A stretch of 64,000 nt of DNA, taken from Escherichia coli (lineage in GTDB: Bacteria; Pseudomonadota; Gammaproteobacteria; Enterobacterales; Enterobacteriaceae). The stretch lies in the NCBI RefSeq assembly GCF_044324875.1, contig NZ_CP172185.1. One strand, 5' to 3'. The translations under genes and the position numbers were made by a program. Below are positions 23,271-44,432 of the stretch, in pieces. Numbering within the stretch: position 1 is the first letter of the stretch; every line of letters begins with the position of its first letter. Under the pieces are notes generated by a model that was not told the origin of the DNA, made no database searches, and saw only the letters and a program-made list of their open reading frames with translations.

Positions 23271-23534
23271 ATGAAACCGAATATCCATCCTGAATACCGT
23301 ACTGTGGTGTTCCACGATACCAGTATCGATGAGTACTATAAAATTGGTTCGACCATCAAGACTGAACGTGTGATTGAGCTTGATGGTGTCACCTATCCGT
23401 ACGTAACTATTGACGTTTCCTCTAAGTCGCATCCTTTCTACACCGGCAAACTGAGAACTGTTGCTTCAGAAGGTAACGTGGCGCGCTTTAACCAGCGTTT
23501 CGGGCGTTTTGTTGACACCAAAAAAGGTGCCTGA
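23271..23534 (+). CDS. rpmE2: 50S ribosomal protein L31 type B (zinc-independent paralog)
   Basis: 87 aa [18 protein letters not shown]... lacking the Cys zinc motif; near-identical to recalled YkgM. Confidence 0.8.
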
Positions 23535-23640: not shown

Positions 23641-24813
23641 TTATTTATTTCCTTTTGAACGATTATGCGTAACGCAAAGCATTTCGCAATTATCAGGCTT
23701 ACTTTCACCCCCCTTACTCCATGCGGAAACATGGTCGGCTTCCATTTCTTTCAAAGCCCAGATTTTTGTTTTATTGGCATTATCTGAACTGGCGCAAAGG
23801 GGGCAGTTTGAAATACCTTGTTGCTCCGCTTTATCTGTTTGCCTTTTGTAGGCTTGTTTTTTAATTTTTTCATCAAAAAAGCGAATGTTTAATAAACGTT
23901 TATCAGATTGACCACCTAACACATATTCCCAGATGCCTTTAATGTTTTTTACACTATCATCCTGATATAATTTATTGATTTGCGTGGCTAATTCACCTGG
24001 ATTGTATGGTTTGTCTTTATAGGTTTCGTATAAACGCCCCCATTCCAGTCCGCACATTTCTTTTTTTACCTCGGTAAATGTGGTGTTAACCCAGTCAATC
24101 ACGCTATTGAAATAGGTTTTTAATTCCTTGATATTGTCATCATTACGATGGGCATTCATGTATTCGCTGATATTTCCTTTACTGACCCAGTTTAACGCAC
24201 ATTCTAAAATTTCCTGGCGTTTAACATTACCTTTGATGTAAGCACTCCATTTTTGCACATTTGAATTAGCAGAATTACTGAATTCTGCTTTTGCCAGTGT
24301 AACAAATTTGCCCGAATACACCGCATTCAATAATTCTTGTTCATTTAAAGGGACGCCAGTAATATTAATCGTTTTAAACCATTCTTTAATTTCGCTTTCT
24401 GTACCCTTACATTTGTAAATCAGCAAAGTGGTTTGTTTGATTTTCTCTTGTTGGTCTTGCGGTAAACTATGGAAATAGTATGGCGTGCCTTTATCATCTA
24501 TAATGGCGAATTTTCCGGTAACAAACCGCCCAATACTGGTAATGCGCTGCTGACCATCCAGTACTTCAAATGTATCTTCTGTATCTTTGTCAGGTTGATT
24601 AAAATAAATCAAACCGAGCGGATAACCTTTTAATACTGACTGGATAACTGCCACATCTTTCTTACCGTCTGCATAAATATAATTGCGTTGATATTCGGGC
24701 TGAATGGTAAGCTTTCCTGATAAACCAAACAAGCCTTTTCCCTCCAGTTCATTATAAACAAATCCATCGCACAATTGTTCAACGGTGATTGATGTATCTA
24801 ATTGTGTTTTCAT
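23641..24813 (-). CDS. DUF262 (ParB-like, DGQQR) plus C-terminal HNH nuclease
   Basis: motifs QPEYQR and DGQQR near N-terminus; HNH-like HVSAWSKGG...[10 protein letters not shown] at C-terminus; 15 bp after methyltransferase stop. Confidence 0.6.
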
Positions 24814-24828: not shown

Positions 24829-25983
24829 TTATTTATTTTGTGGATTGATGTGTTTAATAAGAATGCGTCCATAAGTACGTTTGCCGTTAATAACTGTACA
24901 CCCACCCCTATCTTCAGAATGTTGAGAATAATTTAAAATCTCCAGTATCTCTTCGGGAGTTGATGCTCGTGTATTACCACTTGCTTGCCAAATAATTTCA
25001 AACTGTTCAGGACAATATTTATCCAAAAAGCTAATTGGCACGCCCATAACTCCTGCATAATCGCTAGGAATACCGTTAGTTCTGGGCACTTCAATAGCAT
25101 CATAATTGTCATATGCCTGATAAGCGTTAGGGTCATTGATAATTTGTTTGTTGTATTTTAAATTATCCGCCATAGACATTAGCTGTAAAGATTGATGCCG
25201 TCTGCCGTGTTCAATATTGGTAAACCAACAAGAGTTACCCAAACGAGTATAATCACCTATATATCCTAGACGCTCCGCTTTTTTCTTATCAGCTTCCCTC
25301 ACATCAGCACCTTGTGGTACAGCAAAAACCATATCATTACCATTCCCAGTAGCACCCAACCAAATTTTATTTCCTTTGATAAGTGGAAAAATCTCTTTAT
25401 AAGTAATAGCATTCATATTACCGATAACGGCAAACTGCTTTTTACCTTCCATAATCCATGCCATAAATTCGCGAAACAGCGAAAAAGGCGGATTGGTGAT
25501 AATTATGTCGCTTTCATCGCGTAGAGCTTTGATTTCATCACTACGAAAATCGCCATCACCCTGCAGGTATTGCCATTTAATATCTTTAAAATCAATTACA
25601 CCATCGTGATTACTGTCTTCGGTTAGCGTGTAAATTTTGCCATGTTTCTGGCTTTTATCACTGTCGTATTGTTCACTTTCGCTTTCAAATAATGATGGCT
25701 GATAAGCTGTGTTTAACTGTTTGGATTGATGAGCGTAGCTGGTACTGATGAGCTTCTTTAATCCAAGTCGTTCAAAGTTTTGTGCAAAATAAAGTGTGAA
25801 ATTGCTCCACTCGGGGTCATCACATGGTAAGAGAATGGTTTTGCCACGAAATACGTCTTTATTGAAATCAAGATAGGCATTCATCTCTTTTTCAATATCA
25901 TGGTATTGGGTGTAAAATTCGTCATTTTTGGCTTTTTTTGCAGCAGAAAGATTACTGTTTTTGGCAGAAATATTCTTTGACAT
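24829..25983 (-). CDS. N6-adenine DNA methyltransferase (NPPF motif)
   Basis: catalytic motif IITNPPF; GGAGG RBS 7 nt upstream. Confidence 0.6.
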   Translation of the reverse strand: MSKNISAKNSNLSAAKKAKNDEFYTQYHDIEKEMNAYLDFNKDVFRGKTILLPCDDPEWSNFTLYFAQNFERLGLKKLISTSYAHQSKQLNTAYQPSLFESESEQYDSDKSQKHGKIYTLTEDSNHDGVIDFKDIKWQYLQGDGDFRSDEIKALRDESDIIITNPPFSLFREFMAWIMEGKKQFAVIGNMNAITYKEIFPLIKGNKIWLGATGNGNDMVFAVPQGADVREADKKKAERLGYIGDYTRLGNSCWFTNIEHGRRHQSLQLMSMADNLKYNKQIINDPNAYQAYDNYDAIEVPRTNGIPSDYAGVMGVPISFLDKYCPEQFEIIWQASGNTRASTPEEILEILNYSQHSEDRGGCTVINGKRTYGRILIKHINPQNK

Positions 25984-26033
25984 TTCAAACCTCCAAAACA
26001 GTATTGAAGGTTTGAAAAAACGGGGTTACATTA

Positions 26034-26152
26034 TGCTTGTTGCTTGTTGCTTGTTGCTTGTTGCTTGTTGCTTGTTGCTTGTTGCTTGTTGCTTGTTGCT
26101 TGTTGCTTGTTGCTTGTTGCTTGTTGCTTGTTGCTTGTTGCTTGTTGCTTGT
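26034..26152. repeat. heptanucleotide microsatellite (TGCTTGT)x17
   Basis: 17 perfect tandem units, 119 bp, beginning 50 bp upstream of the methyltransferase ATG. Confidence 0.9.
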
Positions 26153-26211
26153 ATTAGCATTGGATTTTCCCTTTTACTTGTCAAGTATTTTCTTTTGGAT
26201 TCTGAAGTTTT

Positions 26212-26538
26212 TCACGTATTCGTAACGATGGCATCAAGTGCAGCGATAATTTCATTTCTGGATGAAGAAATATTACATATAAAATCTTTGCTGTTTATTT
26301 TTTTTGCATCCAGGAACGTGAGCGCCGGGGTGAACACATAGAAATCCGATGTCTCTATTTTAACTAATGGCGTTATCCTTTTCTTTTTAAGCTCAATATC
26401 ATTTTTTGATACCAGAGGCACGACTATCCTTGTGGTTAAATCGTCAAAATAATCATTCTGGAGAATAAGGTAGAACGGCCAGAGTTTATTCGTTCTGACC
26501 GATGGATTGCGGTATACATCAAATTGCTTTGGCATCAC
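26212..26538 (-). CDS. CcdB-like toxin candidate
   Basis: 108 aa; QFDVYRN...FYLILQNDYF...PL pattern resembles CcdB; 4-nt overlap with upstream antitoxin-like ORF. Confidence 0.4.
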   Translation of the reverse strand: MMPKQFDVYRNPSVRTNKLWPFYLILQNDYFDDLTTRIVVPLVSKNDIELKKKRITPLVKIETSDFYVFTPALTFLDAKKINSKDFICNISSSRNEIIAALDAIVTNT

Positions 26539-26783
26539 AGACTCCCAAAGAAATCGTCATCCGTCAACATTCCTGCTTTTGCCATAAATTTATTCATAGT
26601 GTGCATATCCTGTTTTTCTTCTTCCCGCTCTACAGTTTTGGCCTCGATAGCCTGTGCCAGAAGGTTATCCAGTGTTGCCGACAGGTTCATGTCCATACTC
26701 CGGGCTTTATCAACCAGTGAGGCCGTCAGGTAAACGTTGGTGCTTCTTTTGTTGCTGTTACGAGTGGTGGCAACTGTATTCAT
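26535..26783 (-). CDS. CcdA-like antitoxin candidate
   Basis: 82 aa from ATG 26783 (AGGAG RBS); table ORF 26535-26879 trimmed. Confidence 0.4.
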   Translation of the reverse strand: MNTVATTRNSNKRSTNVYLTASLVDKARSMDMNLSATLDNLLAQAIEAKTVEREEEKQDMHTMNKFMAKAGMLTDDDFFGSL

Positions 26784-26862
26784 TATGCTTGCTCCTGTGC
26801 GCAGATGTATGCGCATAATTATGATGGGGGAAGGATAAACAATCAAGTGTGATCCTTCCGTT

Positions 26863-26970
26863 AGAAGGTAATGTGGCATGCTTTAACCAGCGTTTCGGGT
26901 GTTTTGTTGACACCAAAAAAGGTGCCTGATCAGAAATCGATCACAGGCGCTATTGATATGCAAAAGTATT
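26863..26970. repeat. direct repeat copy 2 (about 108 bp)
   Basis: re-encodes ...[21 protein letters not shown] plus stop and downstream flank. Confidence 0.75.
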
Positions 26971-27053
26971 GCTTGAGTGTCTGAGGTCGGTTATTTTATG
27001 TTTCACAAGTAAAGAAGCATTTAAAAAGAAACTCACAGTCCATATTCCTTCAT

Positions 27054-27077
27054 CCCCGGTTACGGGGATTTTTTTTA
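27054..27077 (+). terminator. rho-independent terminator
   Basis: CCCCG GTTA CGGGG hairpin followed by T8; downstream of repeat copy 2. Confidence 0.45.
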
Positions 27078-27190
27078 GCTGCTGTCTGGTGAGGAGGAAA
27101 GGGGCTGTGTCGGGCAGGGCGCTGTAAGGCTGCGATTGTCCGGGTGATGTCTGAACATGCGGTATGTTTGTGTTAAACAAGGGGGGAGTA

Positions 27191-27378
27191 TGTGGATACT
27201 GATTTTCTGGCTTTCAACACCATATTCAGTGTCATCCAGCGTTGCCAGACAACCAACGCTTGCTGTTCATTCTCAGGAGTTCGCCAGCGAAAGGGCCTGC
27301 AGGAATGCGCTGGCTGAGATGAAGAAGGTGAATGTCGGAGAACTGACCCTGAGGGGTATCTGTGTCTCAAAAGAATAG
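27191..27378 (+). CDS. small exported protein, hypothetical
   Basis: G-rich RBS; signal-like N-terminus; 62 aa. Confidence 0.3.
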
Positions 27379-28121
27379 TGGGGGAGAGGGAGCGAACCAG
27401 GCAGTTTTATCAGGAATGTGATTCCGGCGAACCCGCTCGCCGCAGTCCGGCGACCGAACGTCAGTGAGTAAGCGGACGAGGAAGCGGAATGTCACCGTTC
27501 TTTCATAATGCACGAACGCTGTGTGGTTACATGGGGAAAGGATGAATGTCACCATTCTGTATCTGTTTCTGAAAAACAGTTCCGCTTGTTACCCTGTAAT
27601 TGCCGACTGGCGTTAGCATACAGAGGCGGTATTATCCCCTGTGATATCAGGGGTTATTTTGTTTTGCTCTGTAAGACCTGGCCAGCTATTATGCTGGCCT
27701 TTTTGTGGTTTATTGTTCGCAGTCCAGCATTGCAAATAATTTTCGTTTCTGTTCCTTCACATACTCAACATCAACAGTACAATCCAGATAACTTAACTCA
27801 TCTTCTGTCCAGGCATTGATGGATTCTTTTATTCGGTGTGTCACATCAGGTGTGAGTATGTCGCGCATTTCTCAATGGTATCCCGGCTTATTTCTCCTCG
27901 TGGAGATTCAAGCAGAGGAATTACGGCCTGATCTCCCGGAGGGAGTATAAGACGTAATTCATATTTAAGCGTTTCGTTGAGTAAACTACAGAAAGCACTG
28001 TATTTCTCTTTCCGGGTACTGTTCATCGTTTTATTCCTTCTAATTACTGTGCATGGGGTAAGATTAAAGTGTTTTGCAAAAAATGTACAAGTTGTTTTTA
28101 TCCTGATTTAATTTGATGTCA

Positions 28122-28802
28122 TCACTTTTCTTTTGTGTCAGTGGGTACTGCATTGTTTATTAGCCACGGCAATTGTTGATTATCCTGTATTTTTCGGATG
28201 TAGTTATCAATAATATCTTTTGTTTCATCAATATTATTATAAAAAGATTCAAGTGTGCATATAAAATCATCATTTAATGTAGGTAGCAGGATTATGTTTT
28301 TTACTGTGAACCGGATATGACGATTACTCAGTGTTTTTAAATAAAGTTTCTTTCCAATAACAGGATTTACATTGAAAATATTGTAACAGATTTCCACTGT
28401 GTTTTCTGAAGGTGCGTATAATACGTATACCGGATATTTTTTATGAAGTTTTATCAAGCAACTTATAAAATCTAAGTAATTTGTTTGTTTTGCTTTTTCT
28501 CGCATCTTATTTACGTGCTGCGAAAAGAAATATGCTTTTGTAAATATAAAAAGAAAAATAAACGCAGTGTTTAACAGAAATGTGATGACAATTGTTGTAA
28601 ATAACCATTTGCCTGAACCTGTATTAAAAATATGGGATGAAAGATACCCACCTGTCAGCAACAAAAATATAAATAATAATGACTGCATTTTTTCCTGGTT
28701 GTTTATTGATGATTTCAGACACAGAAATATAACAACACATGAAAAGGTCCAGAAAAATATAACAGCAAAATCCATATTATCACCTTTTGTCTGACAGTTC
28801 AT
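28122..28802 (-). CDS. polytopic membrane protein, hypothetical
   Basis: 226 aa, several hydrophobic helices, strongly AT-rich. Confidence 0.4.
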   Translation of the reverse strand: MNCQTKGDNMDFAVIFFWTFSCVVIFLCLKSSINNQEKMQSLLFIFLLLTGGYLSSHIFNTGSGKWLFTTIVITFLLNTAFIFLFIFTKAYFFSQHVNKMREKAKQTNYLDFISCLIKLHKKYPVYVLYAPSENTVEICYNIFNVNPVIGKKLYLKTLSNRHIRFTVKNIILLPTLNDDFICTLESFYNNIDETKDIIDNYIRKIQDNQQLPWLINNAVPTDTKEK

Positions 28803-28944
28803 TTGTTGATGCTATCACGATATTCGCGATGCGGTAAATATATCAATATGTTGGTTTATTTGTGTAATACATTATTTCCCATACGCCATAAATCAGTCTG
28901 TTGACGATAGCTTTTTTCTTTTGTTATTCTGTACCCGCTTTAAC

Positions 28945-29187
28945 TGTCGCTTCGGCGACCACCAATGTTCCATGAGGCCTGTGAGGAACGCCTTCGGGTG
29001 GCCCACGTCGCTCCGGCGACCACCAATGCTCCATCTGACCTGTGAGGAGCGCCTTCGGGTGGTCAGTTTTACACCTCCGTAGCCTGAAAGGAGCTGTGCG
29101 TGCTGATGGGATATGTTCCCGGAAGTACGGGTAAATCTGCACACCTTTGCGAGCAGATGTCACCACGGTTTACGTGATGATGAAGGC
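28945..29187. repeat. 244-bp direct repeat copy A with internal 48-bp tandem sub-repeat
   Basis: about 95 percent identical to 31740-31983. Confidence 0.8.
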
Positions 29188-29921
29188 ATTCCGGATTTCG
29201 TCCGGTACTTTTACTTTTTCTCAGCAGACTTTCATAAAAATGCTTTATGGATCTGCTTCTTAAGATGTTTTCTGGCTTTCCGCATAAGCTTCTTATGACT
29301 GTGCGCACGGCATAAGGCCATTTGAAATTTGGCCGCTTGCGTGTGTACGTGGATTTTGAAGCCTTGCGGCGTCACTTGAGTGCGACCGTAGGGAACACCA
29401 AGTGACGCCACAACAATCTGCCCTGAAAGCAGCATCACGTAAGGCCAGCCAGAAAATCGTCGCTCGTGACCAGCGTTCTGATGACCGTTTCGTCTGTCTG
29501 ACAGCGTCTTTCAGTAACGTGTCCATGCCTTTCCGGCGCGTCCGTTTTCACGGACGGCCACGCCGGAATGTCTTTTTAAACTTCATAATACATGAGAGGT
29601 AAGTGTATTAACTTGTTGAAAAAAGGAATAAATATGAAAAATCGTTCTGAAGTCGGAAGGCGTCATCGTAAGATGACGGGGAGTAAAAAATCGCCCTGGT
29701 GCACAGGTAGCGAACTCCTGTAAAAACTCAACATGTGCAAGCTCTGCTACATCGACATCAAACGAGCCAGGAAGGCGAGCAACCGCGTTACAGAGCCGTC
29801 CGTGATGACGAAAAACTAACAATATCAACGATCTGGTCTGTTTATCGGAAGGGCATCTCATGCAGTTGAACTTTCAGAACGGATGGTTTTCTGCATCTTT
29901 TTTAACAGGGGGATTGACGTT

Positions 29922-30839
29922 ATGTCCCGTAAATCGTCACGTTCCAAAGTTGAAGTCTTTCGCAAGTCATTCATCTCACTTGCCCGTGATTGTGGTGGCA
30001 GCTACGCAACAACCGCTGACAGAATGCGAATTGCCAGATACTTTTTGAATTATTTGCAAGTAAACGGTATCAAACTTCGTCAGACGGGCAGTATTAAGAC
30101 GAGGCATATTTCTGGTTATCTTCTCAGCAGGAAAGAGCAGGGGATCTCTCACCGCACAATTCAGAATGAACGGGCAGTTATGCGCGCAATTCTAGAGAAA
30201 GATGGTCGCCTTAAAATAGCGGATCCGTCCAATCCTTTATTGAGCAATGAAGCTCTTGGACTCAGGGATACATGCCGTGATGGTAAAAAGATACCACTCT
30301 CACAGGATGAGTTTAATAAAGCCTTCAGTAAGGTTGAAAAAAATAATCCCGGTGTTGCTGCAGTAATGCAAATTTCTTATGTTCTTGGACTGAGGACAAA
30401 AGAAGCTGTTCAGTCTTGTAAATCAGTTAACTCGTGGCTACGTGAACTTGATTCAGGGCATGATTCTCTTCTCGTTGTTTTTGGGACGAAAGGTGGAAGG
30501 CCCAGAGATACAACGATCATTAATCGTGATGCAGTGAAACATGCGCTCATTTATGCAAAAAACATTATGGATAAACAGAATGGTAAACTTATCGATTGCC
30601 CCAATATTAAACAGGCTATAAACGTATATCGTTACCATGTAAGAAAAGCTGGTTTATCTGGAGTGAAGGCACCACATAGTATGCGTTATCATTTTTCGCA
30701 GGAAGCAAGGCAGTTTTATCGAAAAAGTGGATATGGAGATAAAGAAATTTACGCAAGGGTTTCCATGGACCTTGGTCATGGTGACGGAAGAGGGCGTTAT
30801 GTAAAACAGGTCTACTTTAAAGGCGATGATGAGAGCTGA
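29922..30839 (+). CDS. tyrosine-recombinase-like protein (integrase family)
   Basis: C-terminal HSMRYHFS...LGHGDGRGRY resembles Box II HxLRH...LGH...Y; AGGGGG RBS. Confidence 0.45.
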   Translation: MSRKSSRSKVEVFRKSFISLARDCGGSYATTADRMRIARYFLNYLQVNGIKLRQTGSIKTRHISGYLLSRKEQGISHRTIQNERAVMRAILEKDGRLKIADPSNPLLSNEALGLRDTCRDGKKIPLSQDEFNKAFSKVEKNNPGVAAVMQISYVLGLRTKEAVQSCKSVNSWLRELDSGHDSLLVVFGTKGGRPRDTTIINRDAVKHALIYAKNIMDKQNGKLIDCPNIKQAINVYRYHVRKAGLSGVKAPHSMRYHFSQEARQFYRKSGYGDKEIYARVSMDLGHGDGRGRYVKQVYFKGDDES

Positions 30840-30842
30840 TAT

Positions 30843-31583
30843 TTAAAATGAATCCGGAGGATATGTGTTTTTCGCGAACTTATTAATTTCTGTAATAAGA
30901 ATTTCTGATGCACGATTACACATGCTCTCATTAAAGTATCCTATATGGCATTCATGGATGCGGCAATTTAGTTTTCTGGATAGCCATCTGTTTGCCTCGT
31001 TACGGGATATATTTGTTTTTTGCTGATAGCTGTCAAAAAGTTTACGCACTTGTGCTCTGAGTATTCTCAAATTTTCTTTAGCTGGAGTACCTAATGGTCT
31101 CCCTGAATTTTTATGACATCCAACCCATGCATTGCATGGGCTGCAAATCCAGTAATATTTGTTTTCTGTAGTGGGTGTCGTGGAAAATGGCATAAGTGCA
31201 CCTTTTCTGAGTTGTGCCTTATTACCACAGTAAGTGCAGATTACAATTGGACGAACATCTGCAATATTCAGTGCTGCATAAGTAAGACGTTCATTTTTCA
31301 TCATGTTTCGTTTTCCACAGTCAGTGAGAATATGCTTTATTGTGTCTAATTCTTCTCGGAGTATTTTTGAACGGACGCCAGTTCGATAACGCTGTTGAAA
31401 GTAGAGCTCAATATGGCGTAGTTTTATACTATTTATTGATTTTATCTGTATATTGGATTCTTTAAGAAATGAAGCAAATCTTCTGGCTCTCCCCATATAT
31501 ACCAGTATGTCTTCTGGTGTCGGGGCGCATGCTTTAGCTATTTTGATTAGCTCATCTTTTAATTTTTTGTATTTCGATTTCAT
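30843..31583 (-). CDS. integrase-N-terminal-like domain plus Cys-rich zinc-ribbon protein
   Basis: CTYCGN...CSPCNAWVGCH and CRIHECH clusters; convergent with 29922-30839. Confidence 0.4.
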   Translation of the reverse strand: MKSKYKKLKDELIKIAKACAPTPEDILVYMGRARRFASFLKESNIQIKSINSIKLRHIELYFQQRYRTGVRSKILREELDTIKHILTDCGKRNMMKNERLTYAALNIADVRPIVICTYCGNKAQLRKGALMPFSTTPTTENKYYWICSPCNAWVGCHKNSGRPLGTPAKENLRILRAQVRKLFDSYQQKTNISRNEANRWLSRKLNCRIHECHIGYFNESMCNRASEILITEINKFAKNTYPPDSF

Positions 31584-31739
31584 CCTGATATCTCTCTTTA
31601 AGGTTCATTAAGAGTGTTACTGAGTAAAAAAATATCAAATTAAGTATTTATTGTCATTCAGTTGTAGCTTCTCAGCCGCTCCACGACAATAACAACTTGA
31701 AGTTTTATGCAGTTTGTGCTTACAATTTAAACGCTAACT

Positions 31740-31983
31740 TGTCGCTTCGGCGACCACCAATGTTCCATGTGGCCTGTGAGGAACGCCTTCGGGTGGCCCA
31801 CGTCGCTCCGGCGACCACCAATGCTTCATCTGACCTGTGAGGAGCGCCTTCGGGTGGTCAGTTTTACACCTCCTGAGCCTGAAAGGAGCTGTGCGTGCTG
31901 AAGGGATATGTTCCCGGAAGTACGGGCAAATCTGCGCACCTTTGAGAGCAGATGTCACTGCGGTTTTCCGTGATGATGAAGGC
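31740..31983. repeat. 244-bp direct repeat copy B
   Basis: pairs with 28945-29187. Confidence 0.8.
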
Positions 31984-32112
31984 TTTTTTATCACTGTATG
32001 ACCTGAGTTATCTCTGGTCTTTAAGCGCATCGTGTTATCGCGTTGATGTGTTCACCTGACGGATTTTCCAGTCCGTCAGGGCGGAACGTCCGTCTTTTAT
32101 CCGGAGGTTCCG

Positions 32113-32514
32113 ATGTTTATTCCACTTCTGTTTCGCGCAGAGATGCGCCTGACACCTTTCTTTCAGCGACTCAGACAACGTCTGTGTTATCCGGTGAGTC
32201 GTGTTCATACACAACATCCCTGGTCTTCTCCACAGTTGCGGCACCTTTACTGCACGCCGTGGTTTGTTAACGCCACCGGCAATCTGGCAGTCCGTGCCTG
32301 CATTGTTTCCATTGACGGTTCTTTGCGACACTGCTTTGAGTTCCGTGAAGGCTCTCACAGCCGTGAATACCGTTTCTGGTTTGAGGCGCTTCCTTTGTCG
32401 GTACTGCGTTTTAACGCTTTTACCGGTCGAATATCCGATCGCCGTACACTCTCTGCTGCCTCCCGTATGGCCGCGCAGCTTACTTCCTTTCGCTATCGCT
32501 TCGGTTTGCGCTGA
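32113..32514 (+). CDS. hypothetical basic protein
   Basis: GGAGG RBS 7 nt upstream; Arg-rich. Confidence 0.3.
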   Translation: MFIPLLFRAEMRLTPFFQRLRQRLCYPVSRVHTQHPWSSPQLRHLYCTPWFVNATGNLAVRACIVSIDGSLRHCFEFREGSHSREYRFWFEALPLSVLRFNAFTGRISDRRTLSAASRMAAQLTSFRYRFGLR

Positions 32515-32666
32515 AGCTGTTTGAGGTCGTTATGACCGTCATTTTCTCTACGAGCAGCGTTGTCTGATCGCGCCATTCAGAACGCGATGACAAAGCTGAT
32601 TTTTCCTTAACCCGTCCGGGAGCGCTTCCGTTCGGGGAACGGTCTCTCTGTTTCTGGAGATTGTTT

Positions 32667-33053
32667 ATGGGACTCGATATTTTTTTCCTTGGGCGTGATC
32701 GTGTTTGTGTTACCGACGCAGTGGTATCGGTACCGGAAACGCGGGAAGTGGGGTACTTTCGCAAGGTTAACCCACTGATTGCCTGGTTTGAGAAGCATTG
32801 TGGACCGCTTGAAAATGCCGTGGAGCGTCCGGTTTCCAGAACGAAACTGGAGGCACTACTGAGCGATCTTGAATGCCTTACGCCGGAGAACTGCCGGGAA
32901 TTCTTCCCCACAACAGAAGGATTCTTTTTTGGCTCTCAGGAGTATGACCAGTATTACTGGAAGGATGTTGAGGACGTGAAGTCGTGGGTCAGACGCACGC
33001 TTGATTCGTTTGATTTTGAACGAAAAATACTGTTGCTCTGGGCATGGTGGTAA
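32667..33053 (+). CDS. hypothetical protein
   Basis: GGAGA RBS; 128 aa. Confidence 0.35.
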   Translation: MGLDIFFLGRDRVCVTDAVVSVPETREVGYFRKVNPLIAWFEKHCGPLENAVERPVSRTKLEALLSDLECLTPENCREFFPTTEGFFFGSQEYDQYYWKDVEDVKSWVRRTLDSFDFERKILLLWAWW

Positions 33054-33139
33054 CTATTTCTCAGTCCTTATTTTTAACCATGTGATTATTCGCAGAGGCC
33101 CGACAGCTCTGGCCTGCTTTTATTCCGGAGAATGAGATT

Positions 33140-33331
33140 ATGCAAATAAGTGCAGAAACTCGCGCTGTTTTACGTCACTACAGACAGATCATTAACGCCA
33201 GACGGCGTGAAGATGGCATGAAAGCTCTCAGCACGCCGCAAATCGTTGATGAGATCTGTGAGTTTATGCTCAGCCAGCCAGCAGTGTATCTGGGGGGGCA
33301 GTTCATCATGCAGAAGGCCAGAACAAGATAG
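33140..33331 (+). CDS. small hypothetical protein
   Basis: GGAGA RBS; 63 aa. Confidence 0.3.
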   Translation: MQISAETRAVLRHYRQIINARRREDGMKALSTPQIVDEICEFMLSQPAVYLGGQFIMQKARTR

Positions 33332-33884
33332 CTGTCTTTGTTCATGGCTTTTCAACAGACCGTTATGCTTTCGCCACCACATGGTAAGGCGGGTCTGATT
33401 TTACTGTTAACCGTACGGTTCACTCTCATACCGTACGGTGGGAGTGAACCCTTTTCATTAAGGACACTCTCATGAAAACGAAAACTTCTGCACCTGCTGT
33501 ATATGTTGGTACCTGGGCTAAATACAACAATGGCAGCATAGAAGGATGCTGGTTTAATGATTTAACCGTTTTTGAAACTGAAAGCGATTTTTTATCTGCG
33601 GCCCGTAAGTTTCATCAGGATGAAAAAGATCCTGAATTTATGTACCAGGATTATGAAAACTTTCCTTCGGGAATGGCTTCAGTGCAAAATGGCATCTGAA
33701 TCGATCGCAGTTTGGCATTCGAATCGATCATGATTTGGCATCCATCTCCGATCACAGTTTGGCATCACAATCGATCACGATTTGGCATGCTTCCGATCAT
33801 TGATTGGCATCCTGCCAGTCACTCCGGGAATTAACTCTTTTCACCACAGTCTCCATTGCCGTGTTTAAACCAGTGGAGACGTCA

Positions 33885-35450
33885 ATGTCCAGAAAGAGAA
33901 AATCCAGGAGCACTATGGAAACCTGTTTTAAGATCCTTCAGCTCAAGTTCGACAAGAAGCTGACTAACCGTTGTATCGGACTGACGTTACACATCAGCGC
34001 CTCAACCGTTTTTGAGGTTCTTGCCCGCTTCAAAGCCTCTTCTCTGTCATGGCCATTACCTGCTGATATATCCCATGACACGCTGGAGAAACTCATTTTT
34101 CCGCCCAAAGACACCTTTGCATCAGAGCTTGTAATGCCTGACATGTTGTACTTCGATACGGAAATGAGAAAACCAGGTGTGACGCGGCAACTGTTGTGGA
34201 TGGAATACAAGGCACAGGCGGGTAACAAAGCGATGGGATACTCGCACTTCTGCCGTTGCTACCGGGAGTGGAAAAAAACGCGACGTCTCTCCATGCGCCA
34301 GGAGCATCGTGCCGGCGAAAAGCTTTTTATCGACTTCTGTGGTCCTACGGTTCCTGTTATTAATCCGGACACCGGTGAGATACGCCGCGTGGCAATCTTC
34401 GTGGCCGTAATGGGGGCGTCCAACTATACCTACGTTGAAGCGTGCGAAGGTCAGGACATGATGTCATGGTTAAATGCCCACAGCCGTTGCCTGACCTTCC
34501 TGGGCGGCGTACCGAAGCTGCTCATCCCCGATAACCTCAGAAGCGCAGTGAAAAAGGCCGATCGATATGAGCCTGTCATCAACGACAGTTATCAGGCACT
34601 GGCTGAGCACTATGGCACGGTTATCATCCCGGCCCGACCACGCAAACCTAAAGATAAACCAAAAGCAGAAAACGGCGTCCTCATCGTTGAACGATGGCTT
34701 CTTGCCCGCATCCGTAATGAAACCTTCCACACGCTCAGGGCGCTGAATGCGCGCCTTAGGGAGTTACTGACAGACATGAATAACCGGCCAATGAAGGGGT
34801 ACGGCAATCAAACCCGTGCAGAACGCTTCCGCATACTGGATGCGCCAGCACTCTCTCCGCTGCCTCTGGCACCTTATGAATACACGGAATACAAAGCTGT
34901 GAAGGTTGGCCCTGACTACCACGTTGAATATGCCCGTCACTGGTACTCCGTTCCACACGAACTGGTCGGTCAGCGTCTGTCACTGAAGGCGGGGCAGTCG
35001 GTGGTACAGCTCTGGCACAAGGGGCAGTGTGTGGCGCAACATCCGCGCAGCACACATGAATATAAACACACAACCAATCCGCTTCACATGCCAGAGCGCC
35101 ACCGGCAGCACGGGACATGGACACCGGAACGCCTGATCGAGCAGGGAAAACGTACGGGCCCGTCCACAGGCCGGGTGGTTGAATCCATGCTGAAGGCAAA
35201 ACCCCATCCGGAACTGGCTTATCGTGCAGTTCTGGGGCTGCTGGCACTTCAGAAAAAATACGGCCCGGAACGGCTGGAAAAGGCCTGTTACGTTGCCCTG
35301 CACTATAACGCCCCTGACAGACGCTTTATCGACAATCTGCTGCGTCACCATCGGGAGAACCTGGAGCTTCCATTATCCCGCCAGGGCGAACAACATCCGG
35401 CATATGCTTCAGAGCATGAAAACCTGCGTGGTCCGGGCTACTACCACTGA
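33885..35450 (+). CDS. istA: IS21-family transposase IstA
   Basis: 521 aa, N-terminal HTH and DDE-like core; GGAGA RBS. Confidence 0.7.
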   Translation: MSRKRKSRSTMETCFKILQLKFDKKLTNRCIGLTLHISASTVFEVLARFKASSLSWPLPADISHDTLEKLIFPPKDTFASELVMPDMLYFDTEMRKPGVTRQLLWMEYKAQAGNKAMGYSHFCRCYREWKKTRRLSMRQEHRAGEKLFIDFCGPTVPVINPDTGEIRRVAIFVAVMGASNYTYVEACEGQDMMSWLNAHSRCLTFLGGVPKLLIPDNLRSAVKKADRYEPVINDSYQALAEHYGTVIIPARPRKPKDKPKAENGVLIVERWLLARIRNETFHTLRALNARLRELLTDMNNRPMKGYGNQTRAERFRILDAPALSPLPLAPYEYTEYKAVKVGPDYHVEYARHWYSVPHELVGQRLSLKAGQSVVQLWHKGQCVAQHPRSTHEYKHTTNPLHMPERHRQHGTWTPERLIEQGKRTGPSTGRVVESMLKAKPHPELAYRAVLGLLALQKKYGPERLEKACYVALHYNAPDRRFIDNLLRHHRENLELPLSRQGEQHPAYASEHENLRGPGYYH

Positions 35451-35466
35451 CAGAAGGAACAACAGT

Positions 35467-37183: not shown

Positions 37184-37250
37184 TGTTTTCCACATTCCCA
37201 CAGGGACTCATCCCTGTGGGACGGGTCCCGGCTTTTTCAGGAGAAATTTC

Positions 37251-39187: not shown

Positions 39188-39196
39188 TGAAACAAT

Positions 39197-42184: not shown

Positions 42185-42186
42185 GA

Positions 42187-44223
42187 TTAGTTTCTTACCA
42201 CCAAATCTAAATCAATAGATTTTTTATTAGCATAACTTTTTAGTGCTTCATTGAGTTCCATCTGTTTCGCACTTTCGAAGTTGCTGCCATAAAATACAAC
42301 TTTGTTAGGGGCAAAGTCTTTGTCTGCATCCAGCTTTTGAAGTAAAGCTTTCAAAGCCTCACTTGTGAAATTAGGCGCAATTAGATATAGCCGACCATCG
42401 CACAAGTGTGCTTTGTAGCCATTAAGGTCAATATCTTCAATTGGTGTTGTTAGCAAGCTGCCATCATACACGCACCATGTCGTCAATAGAGTGTCATACT
42501 GCTCTGGTGTCAATACAGCATCGTCAAAGAAACTAAGATTAGAAAGCGTAAGTTCAGACTCATCTTTCACTCGAAAATTATGAACTGTTTCAAATATTTT
42601 AAATCCCAAATCTCCATTATAATTAGGATTATCTTTTTTCAGCTTTTTTCCTGCCTTAATAATTCTGTCTTTTGTTATATTGAAGATGGATTTATACCCT
42701 TCTTTATAGGCTTGTTTCTTTTTATCTGTTTCTTCATCTAATTGAACACAGATGAAGTTTCTTTTCCTGCCGTCTTCAATATTTAACTCCAGAATACCAT
42801 GAGCTGTAGTTCCAGAGCCAGCAAAAAAGTCAAGATAAATGTCTTTATCTTCGGTTTTTACTGAACCAAATAGTGTTTTTATTAAACTTGTTGGCTTCGG
42901 GTAGGAGAAATATCCTTTCCCACCAAAAAGATTTTCAACCTCAACACCACCATCACTTTTAGTTGAAATAATTGATCTTAGTAAAAACTCTTCAACTTCA
43001 TCTAAAAATTTAACCGAACTGGGTTGGGTGTTTTCTGTACTGGCAAACCAAATTCCACCACAAATAACGCTACCATCATGTAGTTTTTTGATATCTGCAT
43101 ACTTTCCATCTATTCTTTTTGCAATATGATTAAAAGTGCCTTCTTTCCAACGCCAGCCTCTGTCTGGGATTTTGACAGGGTTATTAGTCAAAGGGTGCAA
43201 TACTTCATACGTGGGTCCAAATGAATCTGCATTAGGCCAGCTCATATTAATTTTACCCCATGGCCTATAATCTTCGTTCAAACAGTTGTAAAGAGTAATT
43301 CCACGATCATATCCGTTGGAGCTGTAGAATTTTTTGAGTTGCTGCTCTGCTTTATCTAATGGCACCTTCTCCTTTTTTAACTTTTCAATAAACTGATATA
43401 CATCATCAATACCATCTTTCCGCATTAAAAATTCTTTACTTATTTCGTTATTCTTCGCATAAGCAAGGATGTACTCATGGATATTACCAATACCCTTATC
43501 ATTTTTAGGGATACGTTTATTCCATACAATATTTTCTATGAAATTTGCTTCGCCAAAAATTTCATCACAAATAGTTTTAAGTTGATTTAATTCATTTTCG
43601 TCAATCGAAATAAATATCACACCATCTTCACGTAGAAGCTCACGAGCAATATATAAACGAGGATAAATGAACGTTAACCATGCGCTATGGCTGCTTGAAC
43701 CATTCGTGGTAAATTCAAGTATACGTTTAGCCTCATCAAGATCGATACCTGCCAGATCAGAAAGCTGTTCAGGTGTAAACTTGCGATCATCGTTATAGGC
43801 GAATCCATCCTTACCTGTATTGTATGGTGGATCAATGTAAATCATCTTCACCTTTTCAGAGTAAGCATTAACCATATGCTTCAATACTTCGAGGTTATCC
43901 CCTTTGATTAACAGATTCTGACTGTTTTTGTTCTCTTCACGTTGGTTATGGTCTTTATCTTCGGAGAGTAATGTCTTCGGCGGCAAGTTAGCTAACAGAC
44001 GGGCATAGGATTTACCAAGCCAGTTCAGGCTGTATGATTCTTTGGAGAGTTCAACATCCGATGATTTGACGATTTCAAGCAATTTTTCCTGAATGAACGC
44101 TCCATTTTTATCAAAACACTGTGGAAAGTTAGCCTTTAAAATCGCAAGCTGTTTACTGTTTGTGGTTTCAGTTTCAGAGAAAAGAGTTTCTTTTTTCAGT
44201 TGAAATTGGGGTTGTGTATTCAT
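42187..44223 (-). CDS. mod: Type III restriction-modification methyltransferase, Mod subunit
   Basis: 678 aa; DPPY motif (IYIDPPYNTG); AdoMet motif FFAGSGTT; GGAGG RBS. Confidence 0.8.
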   Translation of the reverse strand: MNTQPQFQLKKETLFSETETTNSKQLAILKANFPQCFDKNGAFIQEKLLEIVKSSDVELSKESYSLNWLGKSYARLLANLPPKTLLSEDKDHNQREENKNSQNLLIKGDNLEVLKHMVNAYSEKVKMIYIDPPYNTGKDGFAYNDDRKFTPEQLSDLAGIDLDEAKRILEFTTNGSSSHSAWLTFIYPRLYIARELLREDGVIFISIDENELNQLKTICDEIFGEANFIENIVWNKRIPKNDKGIGNIHEYILAYAKNNEISKEFLMRKDGIDDVYQFIEKLKKEKVPLDKAEQQLKKFYSSNGYDRGITLYNCLNEDYRPWGKINMSWPNADSFGPTYEVLHPLTNNPVKIPDRGWRWKEGTFNHIAKRIDGKYADIKKLHDGSVICGGIWFASTENTQPSSVKFLDEVEEFLLRSIISTKSDGGVEVENLFGGKGYFSYPKPTSLIKTLFGSVKTEDKDIYLDFFAGSGTTAHGILELNIEDGRKRNFICVQLDEETDKKKQAYKEGYKSIFNITKDRIIKAGKKLKKDNPNYNGDLGFKIFETVHNFRVKDESELTLSNLSFFDDAVLTPEQYDTLLTTWCVYDGSLLTTPIEDIDLNGYKAHLCDGRLYLIAPNFTSEALKALLQKLDADKDFAPNKVVFYGSNFESAKQMELNEALKSYANKKSIDLDLVVRN

Positions 44224-44432
44224 AACGCACCTCCAGAATGCACGGAGGTACTTGACGCGGAATTTTTATACAGGCATATTGTTGCGTTGCGTTGCGTTGC
44301 GTTGCGTTGCGTTGCGTTGCGTTTCGTTGCGTTGCGTTGCGTTGCGTTGCGTTGCGTTGCGTTGCGTTGCGTTGCGTTGCGTTGCGTTGCGTTGCGTTGC
44401 GTTGCGTTGCGTTGCGTTGCGTTGCGTTTCAT
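44220..44432 (-). CDS. repeat-encoded leader ORF (QRNAT)n overlapping mod start
   Basis: ATG at 44432 followed by the 5-mer tract; TGA overlaps mod ATG as ATGA. Confidence 0.35.
   Translation of the reverse strand: MKRNATQRNATQRNATQRNATQRNATQRNATQRNATKRNATQRNATQRNATICLYKNSASSTSVHSGGAL
44281..44425. repeat. pentanucleotide microsatellite (GTTGC)x29; GCAAC on mod strand
   Basis: 29 tandem units with one GTTTC variant. Confidence 0.9.

What the first reader, a model, noticed from the sequence alone, without database searches (positions are those of the whole stretch)
26034..26152. Perfect heptanucleotide microsatellite (TGCTTGT)x17 just upstream of a methyltransferase-nuclease operon
Seventeen perfect tandem 7-bp units (119 bp) end 50 bp upstream of the methyltransferase ATG (25983, minus strand), directly followed on the coding strand by CATAAT, then the GGAGG RBS. 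Perfect long tracts of this kind are prone to slipped-strand mispairing, and a 7-bp step would change promoter spacing or operator phasing with each unit. Together with the 5-mer tract at the Type III locus, both methyltransferase loci in this cargo carry a 5' microsatellite, which suggests stochastic switching of two methylomes.
Basis: partly seen in the sequence, partly recalled or inferred. Interest (0 to 1): 0.75.

Follow-up and report, generated by a model that had tools for sequence, protein, structure and literature searches.

The report
Hypermutable leader repeat gating a methyltransferase
A perfect 17-copy 7-base repeat in front of an E. coli restriction-modification operon is real and varies from 2 to 21 copies between strains with identical flanks; it most likely sits inside a tiny upstream reading frame whose frame decides whether ribosomes can open a hairpin hiding the methyltransferase's ribosome-binding site, so it would be a random switch acting on translation, not on the promoter.

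Summary
(TGCTTGT)x17, which is (ACAAGCA)x17 on the coding strand, lies at 26034-26152 and ends 50 nt before the ATG of an EcoRI-family adenine methyltransferase. That gene is followed by a DUF262/HNH nuclease, making a Type II R-M pair on an E. coli integrative conjugative element.

The tract is hypermutable. In 21 other E. coli assemblies it has 2-21 perfect units, and the lineage-1 flanks have no mismatch in 180 nt.

The promoter-spacing reading is not supported. The tract follows a conserved SD and ATG, so it lies in a leader ORF. The third frame ends at a TGA 1 nt before the methyltransferase ATG. To get there it crosses a 14-bp hairpin (-17 kcal/mol) that buries the GGAGG.

Homologues in Mannheimia, Haemophilus, Spirabiliibacterium, Alysiella and Moraxella share this layout but with different repeat units (5, 7 or 11 nt). 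Their hairpin arms covary. In two homologues the repeat lies inside the methyltransferase ORF.

The window's Type III mod locus has the same design. The inferred mechanism is frame-gated translational coupling; the window (n=17) is predicted OFF or low. No expression data exist. I rate it a new variant of a known kind.

The parts
26818..26846 (-). Best sigma-70-like promoter upstream, TTGATT-17-CATAAT, in front of ccdA. It is a possible source of read-through transcripts into the leader.
   Evidence: (9 of 12 matches). No terminator-like site was found on the minus strand between ccdB and the methyltransferase. The function is inferred.
26212..26783 (-). ccdA-ccdB toxin-antitoxin pair, directly upstream and on the same strand as the leader.
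   Evidence: RefSeq annotation of identical loci; Pfam CcdA/CcdB on the called genes; NCBIfam CcdB.
26187..26215 (-). Weak candidate promoter GTGAAA-17-GAAAAT (8 of 12). If used, its transcript would include the leader ORF.
   Evidence: Relaxed scan. It is below the threshold of the standard scan and is speculative.
26161..26176 (-). Shine-Dalgarno region of the leader ORF, TAAAAGGGAAAATCCA (AAGGG about 8 nt before the ATG).
   Evidence: An equivalent AAGGA or AGGAG lies 6-7 nt before the leader ATG in Moraxella, Mannheimia, Spirabiliibacterium, H. paraphrohaemolyticus and an Elusimicrobia genome.
26026..26160 (-). Leader ORF (uORF) as it reads in this window: ATG at 26160, MLIQA(TSNKQQA)n...TSIM, stop TAA at 26028..26026 (44 codons). 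This is the early-stop frame, predicted OFF or low.
   Evidence: The ATG is conserved in all three E. coli lineages.
26034..26152 (-). Hypermutable heptanucleotide tract (ACAAGCA)x17. There are no stop codons in any frame on this strand, and each unit gained or lost shifts the leader frame by +1 or -1.
   Evidence: The tract RNA is predicted to be unstructured.
26026..26033 (-). Pair of stop codons in two different frames immediately after the tract (TAA at 26033..26031; ATA-ATG-TAA ending at 26026).
   Evidence: Two frames stop 39-54 nt before the methyltransferase ATG in all 7 species with the split layout.
25983..26017 (-). Hairpin sequestering the SD. The 5' arm UUUCAAACCUUCAA (26017..26004) pairs with UUGGAGGUUUGAAA (25996..25983), with loop UACUGUU. 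It buries GGAGG (25994..25990) and the A of the ATG.
   Evidence: -17 kcal/mol, z = -3.75, 0 of 200 shuffles fold as well. It is kept in the fold of the whole leader. The arms covary across homologues.
25985..25987 (-). TGA stop of the long leader frame (used when n is a multiple of 3). It lies 1 nt before the methyltransferase ATG, a translational-coupling geometry.
   Evidence: RefSeq annotates this 46-aa ORF in strain 2013C-3033, n=12. A 67-aa ORF is called at n=21.
24829..25983 (-). EcoRI-family N6-adenine DNA methyltransferase, 384 aa.
23641..24813 (-). DUF262 (GmrSD_N) + HNH nuclease, 390 aa, the cognate Type II restriction enzyme. It starts 15 nt after the methyltransferase stop and has its own AAGGA.
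   Evidence: A homologue follows the methyltransferase in 74 of 80 related loci.
44223..44432 (-). Second copy of the same switch design, in front of the Type III mod gene (42187..44223). It has a leader ATG at 44432, a (GCAAC) tract of about 30 units, an anti-SD hairpin, and a leader stop overlapping the mod start as ATGA. In this window it is in the coupled frame, predicted ON.

Best explanation
The tract is a contingency-locus microsatellite lying inside a short translated leader ORF in front of a Type II restriction-modification operon. It acts through reading frame, not through promoter geometry.

A ribosome starts at the leader ATG (26160) and reads through (ACAAGCA)n. Each 7-bp slip shifts the frame by one. 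In two of the three frames the ribosome meets a TAA directly after the tract, 42-47 nt before the methyltransferase start. A 14-bp hairpin then keeps the methyltransferase GGAGG and the A of its ATG base-paired, so methyltransferase translation is off or low. The nuclease probably falls with it through polarity or coupling.

In the third frame (n a multiple of 3 in E. coli) the ribosome runs through the hairpin and terminates at a TGA 1 nt before the methyltransferase ATG. It melts the hairpin and re-initiates, giving the ON state. With n=17 this window is in an early-stop frame.

Shown here: the tract and its polymorphism, the leader ORF and its frames, the hairpin and its covariation, and the recurrence of the layout in homologues. 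Inferred: that the leader is transcribed and translated, that the long frame activates, and that the nuclease follows the methyltransferase.
For: 1. Hypermutability. n = 17 (window), 5, 7, 7, 11, 11, 11, 13, 14 and 21 occur with 0 mismatches in 180 flanking nt. A second lineage has 2, 4, 7, 8, 8, 9, 12, 12 and 14, and a third has 2 and 2. All three frames occur.

2. Conserved SD+ATG 3-9 nt before the tract in E. coli and in the four split homologues whose contig reaches that far, and 17 nt before it in L070.

3. Frame layout. In 8 of 8 Type II leaders (7 species) two frames stop 39-54 nt upstream. The third ends between -3 and +11 of the methyltransferase ATG (TGAnATG, ATGA or TAATG). The chance per locus is 0.02-0.12 by shuffling.

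4. Hairpin. It has -17 kcal/mol and z = -3.75 in E. coli. The SD lies in a stem in all 8 leaders folded, and in the mod leader. Native arm pairs average -14.6 kcal/mol against -8.5 for arms swapped between species. SSR-bearing leaders differ from 64 SSR-less homologues (median -15.7 vs -7.2 kcal/mol; 10.5 vs 6 of the last 13 nt paired; p about 0.005).

5. Independent recurrence. Homologous methyltransferases carry different units at the same position: AATCA, AACGC, TTCGG, AACACGC, an 11-mer, and a degenerate CAGCA. All unit lengths are non-multiples of 3.

6. In an Elusimicrobia and an Acinetobacter genome the repeat lies inside the methyltransferase ORF with no separate start, the classical frame switch.

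7. Moraxella pluranimalium has a decayed, no longer mutable tract fixed in the long frame.

8. The same design sits before the window's Type III mod gene.

9. Published methylomes of Bibersteinia trehalosi report a Type III methyltransferase with (CGCAA)n ending 43 bp before its ATG. It is active at n=15 and inactive at n=14 and 17, which share one frame. The authors left this unexplained (PMC4996451).
Against: There is no transcription start, ribosome-profiling, reporter or methylome data for this locus.

No strong promoter upstream of the leader ORF was found in E. coli: only a weak 8-of-12 candidate and possible read-through from ccdAB.

The methyltransferase has a strong GGAGG of its own, so some uncoupled expression is possible.

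Only 4 of 21 assemblies are in the predicted ON frame (and earlier). Three n=2 alleles are locked in an early-stop frame; at least L005 and L104 still have intact R and M genes (L006 has IS1 in the nuclease). So OFF may mean 'low', or the polarity could be reversed.

Many n values come from short-read assemblies, which can mis-size repeats.

The B. trehalosi leader sequence could not be fetched, so it was not checked for the same layout.
Confidence: 0.65

Rival explanations
1. Same architecture but opposite polarity. Ribosomes translating the long leader frame across the SD and start occlude methyltransferase initiation, so the long frame is OFF. The early-stop frames then allow independent initiation at GGAGG.
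For: The methyltransferase has a strong SD with good spacing. Seventeen of 21 assemblies, including the locked n=2 alleles (two of them with intact R and M genes), are in early-stop frames, which is what one would expect if that state were the working one.
Against: A -17 kcal/mol hairpin that covaries and pairs all 13 nt before the ATG only makes sense if uncoupled initiation is meant to be blocked. Stop/start overlaps such as ATGA, TAATG and TGAnATG are classical re-initiation geometries (established knowledge). The decayed Moraxella tract is fixed in the long frame. With two OFF frames out of three, about 67% OFF is expected without any selection.
Confidence: 0.12
2. An hmw1A-like 5'-UTR effect. 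The transcribed tract changes mRNA length, structure or processing, so expression falls or rises gradually with unit number, independent of frame.
For: Like the H. influenzae hmw1A/hmw2A repeats, this is a heptanucleotide tract upstream of the ATG with a wide range of copy numbers (PMC12721329; PMC2651432).
Against: The hmw mechanism needs the repeats to pair with a G-rich arm to form a long RNase III substrate. Here the tract is predicted to be unstructured and the only stable helix is the SD hairpin. A graded model does not explain the conserved SD+ATG, the two conserved stops, the stop/start overlap, or why the unit lengths avoid multiples of 3.
Confidence: 0.08
3. The tract lies in or next to the promoter, and each 7-bp step changes the -35/-10 spacing, UP-element phasing or operator phasing.
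For: CATAAT follows the tract, and GCAACA lies 16 nt upstream of it within the repeat (8 of 12). TTGACA lies 24 nt before the tract.
Against: The standard scan finds no promoter there. The in-tract candidate is identical for every n>=4, so it cannot sense unit number. TTGACA has no -10 partner at 15-19 nt. The 'CATAAT' position is conserved in homologues as two stop codons, not as a -10 box. The repeat-inside-ORF relatives show that the tract acts on the frame.
Confidence: 0.06
4. A relic in E. coli. The switch evolved in a low-GC host-adapted lineage and now merely drifts in length on the element, with no effect on fitness or expression.
For: The R-M genes are 37% GC in a 51% GC window. The closest relatives are in Moraxella and Pasteurellaceae. 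Frame classes are not significantly skewed (4, 5 and 12 of 21). Some alleles have collapsed to n=2, and one nuclease is disrupted by IS1.
Against: Long perfect tracts (up to 21 units) persist in three E. coli lineages with an intact leader, hairpin and genes. Without selection, tracts usually acquire interruptions or collapse.
Confidence: 0.09

Closest known systems
Phase-variable methyltransferases with a repeat inside the ORF just after the ATG (Type III mod and Type I hsdM 'phasevarions', e.g. modA, modP/modQ GCACA(n), M.Btr188III ACAGC(n))
   Same: A 5' hypermutable tract whose unit length is not a multiple of 3, and a switch that is read out through the reading frame, acting on a DNA methyltransferase. 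Two homologues of this methyltransferase (L070, L076) have exactly this fused form (PMC10123105; PMC4996451).
   Different: Here the repeat is in a separate leader ORF. All three frames stop before the methyltransferase coding sequence, the methyltransferase has its own SD and ATG, and a hairpin plus a stop/start overlap transmit the frame information. The enzyme is a Type II (EcoRI-family) methyltransferase with a separate nuclease.
Bibersteinia trehalosi Type III M.Btr192II with (CGCAA)n ending 43 bp upstream of the ATG (PMC4996451)
   Same: The repeat lies about 45 bp upstream of a methyltransferase ATG. The unit is a cyclic permutation of the window's mod tract (GCAAC) and of the Spirabiliibacterium tract (AACGC). 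Activity is reported at n=15 but not at 14 or 17, which fits a frame rule.
   Different: The authors gave no mechanism ('warrants further study'). I could not fetch the sequence to confirm the leader ORF and hairpin. The enzyme is Type III, not Type II.
H. influenzae biogroup aegyptius F3031 (CAAG)32 located 58 bp upstream of an 'adenine specific methylase (EcoRI)' (PMC2651432)
   Same: The same methyltransferase family and the same position of the tract relative to the ATG. It is probably a further member of this group.
   Different: It was only catalogued in a repeat survey, with a tetranucleotide unit and no mechanism or polymorphism analysis. Its sequence was not examined here.
H. influenzae hmw1A/hmw2A heptanucleotide repeats (ATCTTTC)n
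   Same: A 7-bp unit upstream of the coding sequence, transcribed, with many alleles.
   Different: In hmw the repeats form one arm of a long 5'-UTR hairpin cut by RNase III, and expression falls gradually with n. Here the tract is unstructured and the signal is the frame.
Translational coupling through a leader ORF that opens an SD-sequestering hairpin (a general bacterial mechanism, e.g. the intergenic small ORF promoting translation of a Salmonella Mg2+ transporter, PMC8092293 title/abstract only; uORF coupling survey PMC13285730)
   Same: A leader ORF with its own SD, a hairpin burying the downstream SD, and a stop adjacent to or overlapping the downstream start.
   Different: Known cases are constitutive or respond to physiology. 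Here a microsatellite makes the coupling stochastic and heritable.
H. influenzae lex2A/lex2B (recalled from memory; not verified in the papers I could read)
   Same: A tetranucleotide tract in a short upstream ORF (lex2A) is said to control a downstream glycosyltransferase ORF (lex2B).
   Different: It is not a methyltransferase, and I could not check the hairpin or overlap details. The one paper I read (PMC6479036) simply calls lex2A the glucosyltransferase gene.

Membership tests
SSR-driven phase-variable DNA methyltransferase (contingency locus / phasevarion type) | Long, perfect simple-sequence repeat in or next to the 5' end of a methyltransferase gene | tested here: met
SSR-driven phase-variable DNA methyltransferase (contingency locus / phasevarion type) | Tract length varies between closely related strains while the flanks stay constant | tested here: met
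   The 22 tracts (the window plus 21 assemblies) show 12 different unit numbers, from 2 to 21. There are 0 mismatches in 180 flanking nt within lineage 1.
SSR-driven phase-variable DNA methyltransferase (contingency locus / phasevarion type) | Tract length varies within a clonal population at high frequency and reversibly | not testable with these tools
   This needs amplicon fragment analysis or long reads from single cultures.
SSR-driven phase-variable DNA methyltransferase (contingency locus / phasevarion type) | Unit number switches methyltransferase expression and genome methylation ON and OFF | not testable with these tools
   It is only predicted from frames and the hairpin. Indirect support comes from the B. 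trehalosi methylomes.
SSR-driven phase-variable DNA methyltransferase (contingency locus / phasevarion type) | Repeat lies inside the methyltransferase ORF so that slippage frameshifts the enzyme itself | tested here: not met
   All three frames stop before the methyltransferase ATG. The feature is met only in homologues L070 and L076.
Phasevarion in the strict sense (methylation switch controlling a regulon) | Differential methylation changes expression of multiple host genes | not testable with these tools
   No expression data. The presence of a cognate nuclease suggests a defence role at least.
Promoter-spacer or promoter-proximal SSR switches (hifA/B, opc, porA, nadA type) | Tract lies between -35 and -10, or at a fixed phase from a mapped promoter, so that length changes alter transcription | tested here: not met
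   No promoter spans the tract. The in-tract 8-of-12 candidate does not depend on n.
hmw1A-type 5'-UTR heptanucleotide switch | Repeats form an arm of a long 5'-UTR hairpin (RNase III substrate) | tested here: not met
   The tract is unpaired in the centroid fold of the whole leader.
uORF-mediated translational coupling with SD sequestration | Leader ORF with its own SD and start codon, conserved among relatives | tested here: met
uORF-mediated translational coupling with SD sequestration | Stable hairpin pairing the downstream SD and start, supported by covariation | tested here: met
uORF-mediated translational coupling with SD sequestration | Leader stop codon adjacent to or overlapping the downstream start | tested here: met
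   Met in one of the three frames, in 8 of 8 Type II leaders and in the mod leader.
uORF-mediated translational coupling with SD sequestration | Leader ORF is actually transcribed and translated, and downstream translation depends on it | not testable with these tools
   Needs 5' RACE, ribosome profiling and reporter mutants.
Type II restriction-modification system | Separate methyltransferase and endonuclease genes that co-occur as a conserved pair | tested here: met
   PF13651 methyltransferase; GmrSD_N+HNH nuclease matching PADLOC REase_II; the pair is kept in 74 of 80 related loci. The recognition site is unknown.

The most novel reading that the evidence does not exclude
A portable 'frame-gated coupling' cassette has been grafted onto unrelated methyltransferase families: the EcoRI-family Type II enzyme and the Type III Mod in this window, and probably others. 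The cassette consists of an SD, an ATG, a microsatellite, two stops, an anti-SD hairpin and an overlapping stop/start. It spreads on conjugative elements, here giving E. coli two independently and randomly switching R-M and methylation states. Recombination within or between the repeats themselves (as in the 5-mer/7-mer fusion in CP126293.1) would be the route by which cassettes are swapped.
Probability: 0.45. Interest if true: 0.78.

Novelty: new variant of a known kind. Interest (0 to 1): 0.66.

Why it matters
Surveys of phase-variable methyltransferases look for repeats inside annotated ORFs or in promoters. A repeat in an unannotated leader ORF that acts through a hairpin and a stop/start overlap would be missed or filed as 'intergenic, unexplained'. 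That is what happened for B. trehalosi and H. influenzae F3031.

If the model holds, it gives a simple rule for reading ON and OFF states of such loci from genome sequence: unit number modulo 3, relative to the leader ATG. It would extend stochastic switching to a classical two-gene Type II system, which raises the question of how cells survive the OFF transition. It would also show that E. coli, in which SSR-driven methyltransferase switching has rarely been reported, carries two such switches on one conjugative element. That is relevant to phage and plasmid uptake barriers and to methylome heterogeneity in avian and human pathogenic strains.

Tried and rejected
1. 'Steps of three units'. The first seven genomes (17, 14, 11 | 12, 9 | 2, 2) suggested that only 21-bp changes are tolerated. 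With 21 assemblies all residue classes occur (4, 5 and 12; chi-square about 5.4, p about 0.07, and the samples are not independent), so I dropped the idea.

2. Promoter search. The standard and relaxed scans gave nothing convincing at the tract.

3. Metagenome scan for the 5' junction. It returned one contig, which breaks inside the tract.

4. Counting alleles through leader-ORF peptides in the protein collection. Gene callers rarely call the leader ORFs. Only the 46-aa n=12 forms turned up, along with unrelated TSNKQQA-repeat ORFs in Treponema, Brachyspira and Streptococcus, which I did not follow.

5. Fetching the B. trehalosi mod locus, either through homologues of the window's Mod or through RNATQ-repeat peptides. 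It was not recovered.

6. Literature search on the bare 7-mer gave 18,659 irrelevant papers. A 14-15-mer search gave nothing relevant.

7. Rfam: no family matches; there is one sub-threshold chance hit to the hairpin. The PDB has no sequence relative of the methyltransferase. NCBIfam has no model for either enzyme.

8. A MAFFT alignment of the leaders was too poor for column-wise covariation, so I used an arm-swap energy test instead.

9. Plasmid collection: only ccdAB matches at the DNA level, and the methyltransferase homologues there are 63% identical or less.
Full report
**1. The observation**

Tandem Repeats Finder reports a 7-bp array at 26034..26152 with 17.0 copies, 100% identity, no indels and a score of 238. 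The raw sequence agrees. All neighbouring genes are on the minus strand, where the unit reads ACAAGCA.

Downstream lie a 384-aa ORF (24829..25983) and a 390-aa ORF (23641..24813):
- The first is an EcoRI-family N6-adenine methyltransferase (Pfam PF13651, E 1.9e-131; PADLOC MTase_II).
- The second has a GmrSD_N/DUF262 domain plus HNH, and matches a PADLOC Type II restriction enzyme model at 3e-86.

Upstream on the same strand is a ccdA-ccdB toxin-antitoxin pair. The surrounding genes (TraG, TraU, integrases, ArdA) mark an integrative conjugative element in an E. coli chromosome. The R-M genes are 37% GC in a 51% GC window.

**2. Is the tract polymorphic?**

Yes. Six complete E. coli chromosomes carry the locus, and exact-protein look-ups added more assemblies.
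- With 100 nt of 5' flank and 80 nt of 3' flank identical to the window, n is 5, 7, 7, 11, 11, 11, 13, 14 or 21, and 17 in the window.
- A second sequence lineage has n = 2, 4, 7, 8, 8, 9, 12, 12 and 14.
- A third lineage has n = 2 and 2.

All tracts are perfect. One caveat is that part of these assemblies come from short reads, which can mis-size repeats. Contigs do break at this tract.

**3. What the tract sits in**

On the coding strand the sequence is TTGACAAGTAAAAGGGAAAATCCA-ATG-CTAAT-(ACAAGCA)17-TAATGTAACCCCGTTTTTTCAAACCTTCAATACTGTTTTGGAGGTTTGAA-ATG.

An ATG with an AAGGG about 8 nt upstream lies 8 nt before the tract. The tract has no stop codon in any frame and encodes (TSNKQQA)n. After the tract the three frames behave differently:
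- One frame stops at once (GCA-TAA).
- One stops after two codons (ATA-ATG-TAA).
- The third runs 16 codons to a TGA that ends 1 nt before the methyltransferase ATG.

Because 7 mod 3 is 1, each unit gained or lost moves the leader ORF to the next frame. The long frame is used when n is a multiple of 3. RefSeq annotates it as a 46-aa protein at n=12, and a gene caller calls a 67-aa ORF at n=21. With n=17 the window is in the ATA-ATG-TAA frame.

**4. The hairpin**

The 50-nt spacer folds into a 14-bp stem: UUUCAAACCUUCAA, a 7-nt loop, then UUGGAGGUUUGAAA. It pairs the whole SD, the spacer and the A of the start codon. Its energy is -17 kcal/mol, z = -3.75, and none of 200 shuffles folds as well. 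The stem survives in the centroid fold of the entire 241-nt leader, in which the tract itself is unpaired. Rfam has no family for it.

**5. Relatives**

A protein-guided scan of species-representative genomes returned 80 loci. In 74 of them the nuclease homologue follows the methyltransferase. Most are from Bacteroidota or Chloroflexota and have no repeat. A group mostly from host-associated Proteobacteria does carry perfect tracts at the same place, each with a different unit:

| Organism | Locus | Repeat |
|---|---|---|
| Mannheimia haemolytica | L051 | (AATCA)13 |
| Spirabiliibacterium falconis | L052 | (AACGC)13 |
| Haemophilus paraphrohaemolyticus | L056 | 11-mer x11 |
| Alysiella crassa | L045 | (AACACGC), at least 8 |
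| [Haemophilus] felis | L031 | (TTCGG)n at a contig end |
| Moraxella pluranimalium (closest relative, 81% aa identity) | L012 | degenerate (CAGCA), about 4.6 |
| Balneolales MAG | L020 | degenerate (AGTC)11 |

The features of the E. coli leader recur across the six split homologues (L012, L031, L045, L051, L052, L056):
- Where the contig reaches that far (L012, L051, L052, L056), an SD and ATG lie 3-9 nt before the tract.
- Two frames stop 39-54 nt before the methyltransferase ATG in all six.
- The third frame ends between -3 and +11 of the ATG (TGAnATG, ATGA or TAATG) in all six.
- Shuffling each leader gives this stop pattern with probability 0.02-0.12 per locus.
- All leaders fold with the SD in a stem.

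The anti-SD arm covaries with its own SD arm. Native duplexes average -14.6 kcal/mol against -8.5 for arms swapped between species, and the native partner ranks first in 6 of 8 and second in 2 of 8. Repeat-bearing leaders are more structured than those of 64 repeat-less homologues: median -15.7 vs -7.2 kcal/mol, and 10.5 vs 6 of the last 13 nt paired, at p about 0.005.

In an Elusimicrobia genome (L070, GAACGCC x6) and an Acinetobacter genome (L076, GAACAGC, at least 7) there is no separate methyltransferase start. There the repeat lies inside the ORF, which is the classical frame switch. All unit lengths seen (4, 5, 7 and 11) are non-multiples of 3.

**6. Mechanism**

The data fit a frame-gated translational coupling switch.
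- In two frames the leader ribosome is released before the hairpin. The SD stays buried and methyltransferase translation is low.
- In the third frame the ribosome unwinds the hairpin and terminates next to the methyltransferase ATG, allowing re-initiation.

Several steps are inference: that the leader is transcribed and translated in E. coli, that the long frame is the ON state, and that the nuclease (own AAGGA, 15 nt after the methyltransferase stop) falls with the methyltransferase through coupling or Rho-dependent polarity.

Three observations support the long frame as ON. The hairpin is strong. The stop/start geometry favours re-initiation. The decayed Moraxella tract is fixed in the long frame.

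Against it, or at least unexplained, are two observations. Only 4 of 21 assemblies are in the long frame. Three n=2 alleles are locked in an early-stop frame, and at least two of them still have intact genes. OFF may therefore mean low.

The promoter is also unresolved. The only 9-of-12 site is in front of ccdA (26846..26818). No terminator separates ccdB from the leader. A weak 8-of-12 site at 26215..26187 would include the leader ORF. In the relatives, my own reading of the upstream sequences shown suggests -10-like boxes upstream of the leader ORF (TATAAT-type in Mannheimia, H. paraphrohaemolyticus and Spirabiliibacterium; TGTATAAT in Moraxella). No promoter scan was run on those loci.

**7. 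Literature**

The paradigm is a repeat inside the ORF just after the ATG, or in the promoter (PMC10123105; PMC5909438). The latter paper reports a different, in-ORF CAGCGAC tract as the first phase-variable methyltransferase in pathogenic E. coli.

Two earlier papers noted what are probably members of the present class without explaining them:
- (CAAG)32 lying 58 bp upstream of an EcoRI-like adenine methylase in H. influenzae F3031 (PMC2651432).
- (CGCAA)n ending 43 bp upstream of the Type III M.Btr192II in B. trehalosi. It is active at n=15 and inactive at n=14 and 17, and the authors wrote that this 'warrants further study' (PMC4996451). Fourteen and 17 units share one frame and 15 is another, as the present model requires, but I could not retrieve that sequence to check the layout.

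The hmw1A heptanucleotide switch works through a repeat-containing hairpin and RNase III (PMC12721329), which does not fit here. Three full-text searches combining phase variation with translational coupling, leader ORFs or re-initiation found no description of this design. The library does not cover most subscription journals. From memory, lex2A/lex2B of H. influenzae may be a partial precedent.

**8. The second locus**

The Type III mod gene (42187..44223) has the same design:
- A leader ATG at 44432, followed by AAA.
- The (GCAAC) tract.
- One frame with an early stop at -42.
- An anti-SD hairpin (-14.9 kcal/mol).
- One frame ending in an ATGA overlap with the mod start.

In the window the leader is in that overlap frame. 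The mod leader resembles those of the Pasteurellaceae Type II loci (GTCAAG..CACTTCC..GGAGGTGC), which suggests a portable cassette. The tract has about 30, 48, 14, 34 and 26 units in the window and four other E. coli genomes, and all three frame outcomes occur.

**9. Verdict**

I classify the feature as a new variant of a known kind: SSR phase variation of a methyltransferase, delivered through a leader ORF and an SD-sequestering hairpin, on a Type II system in E. coli. My confidence in the mechanism is about 0.65.

Noticed in passing
window 44223-44432 (minus strand); L112-L115: The Type III mod gene's pentanucleotide tract is not inside the mod ORF as usually assumed. It lies in a leader ORF (ATG at 44432) followed by an anti-SD hairpin and an ATGA stop/start overlap. 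Its length is about 30, 48, 14, 34 and 26 units in the window and four other E. coli genomes, with all three frame outcomes seen. RefSeq annotates one out-of-frame version as a hypothetical protein overlapping mod.
   Followed up: partly
L010 / L100 (CP126293.1, 4654294-4675448), corresponding to window 26152-44281: In one complete E. coli chromosome the mod leader start ATGAAAC(GCAAC)n is joined through a single N directly to (ACAAGCA)12 and the Type II leader. About 18 kb, including mod, res and ccdAB, is missing. The two tracts have the same orientation and share the word GCAAC. This is either a real repeat-to-repeat deletion or an assembly collapse. If real, it shows how such leader cassettes could be exchanged.
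   Followed up: partly
window 28946-29062 and 31741-31857: Two nearly identical 117-bp elements, each made of 1.9 copies of a 61-bp unit at 89% identity, lie in direct orientation. They flank a roughly 2.7-kb segment that holds two tyrosine-recombinase-like genes (29883..30839 on the plus strand, 30843..31583 on the minus strand). This may be a small excisable or invertible module inside the element.
   Followed up: no
window 33690-33811: An array of 23-bp (also scored as 47-bp) imperfect direct repeats, TGGCATCCGAATCGATCACAATT x4.3. It looks like iterons or a partition site of the conjugative element.
   Followed up: no
window about 23271-23534 (plus strand); L001 2772-3035: A 'type B 50S ribosomal protein L31' paralogue is encoded as cargo right next to the nuclease gene. 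The same gene recurs elsewhere on related elements.
   Followed up: no
L006 3458-4211 (NZ_CP027340.1); L005, L006, L104: In strain 2015C-3121 an IS1 element splits the nuclease gene. That strain, STEC2018-553 and one lineage-2 assembly carry a collapsed n=2 tract locked in an early-stop leader frame. These may be steps in decay or domestication of the system.
   Followed up: partly
proteins P0003, P0006, P0007, P0010, P0011, P0027, P0057: Short hypothetical ORFs made of the same TSNKQQA heptapeptide repeat (that is, ACAAGCA-type 7-nt tracts) are annotated in Treponema denticola, Brachyspira hyodysenteriae, Streptococcus agalactiae, S. suis, S. caballi and Enterococcus faecalis. The same repeat unit may therefore be used at contingency loci in distant phyla.
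   Followed up: no
L057, L069, L072, L074, L078, L081 (Bacteroidales homologues), 17 nt before the methyltransferase ATG: Repeat-less Bacteroidales homologues share a different conserved, strongly paired pre-ATG motif (AACTATCAATCGCT-ATG, -14 to -20 kcal/mol). This hints at another, unrelated way of regulating the same R-M family.
   Followed up: no
L056 and L070 leaders; PMC4996451: Leader ORFs of unrelated methyltransferases begin with the same few codons before the repeat: ATG-CCT-CAT (MPH) in H. paraphrohaemolyticus and the Elusimicrobia genome, and MPN(STAQH)n in the B. trehalosi Type I methyltransferase. This is consistent with a shared 5' cassette.
   Followed up: no
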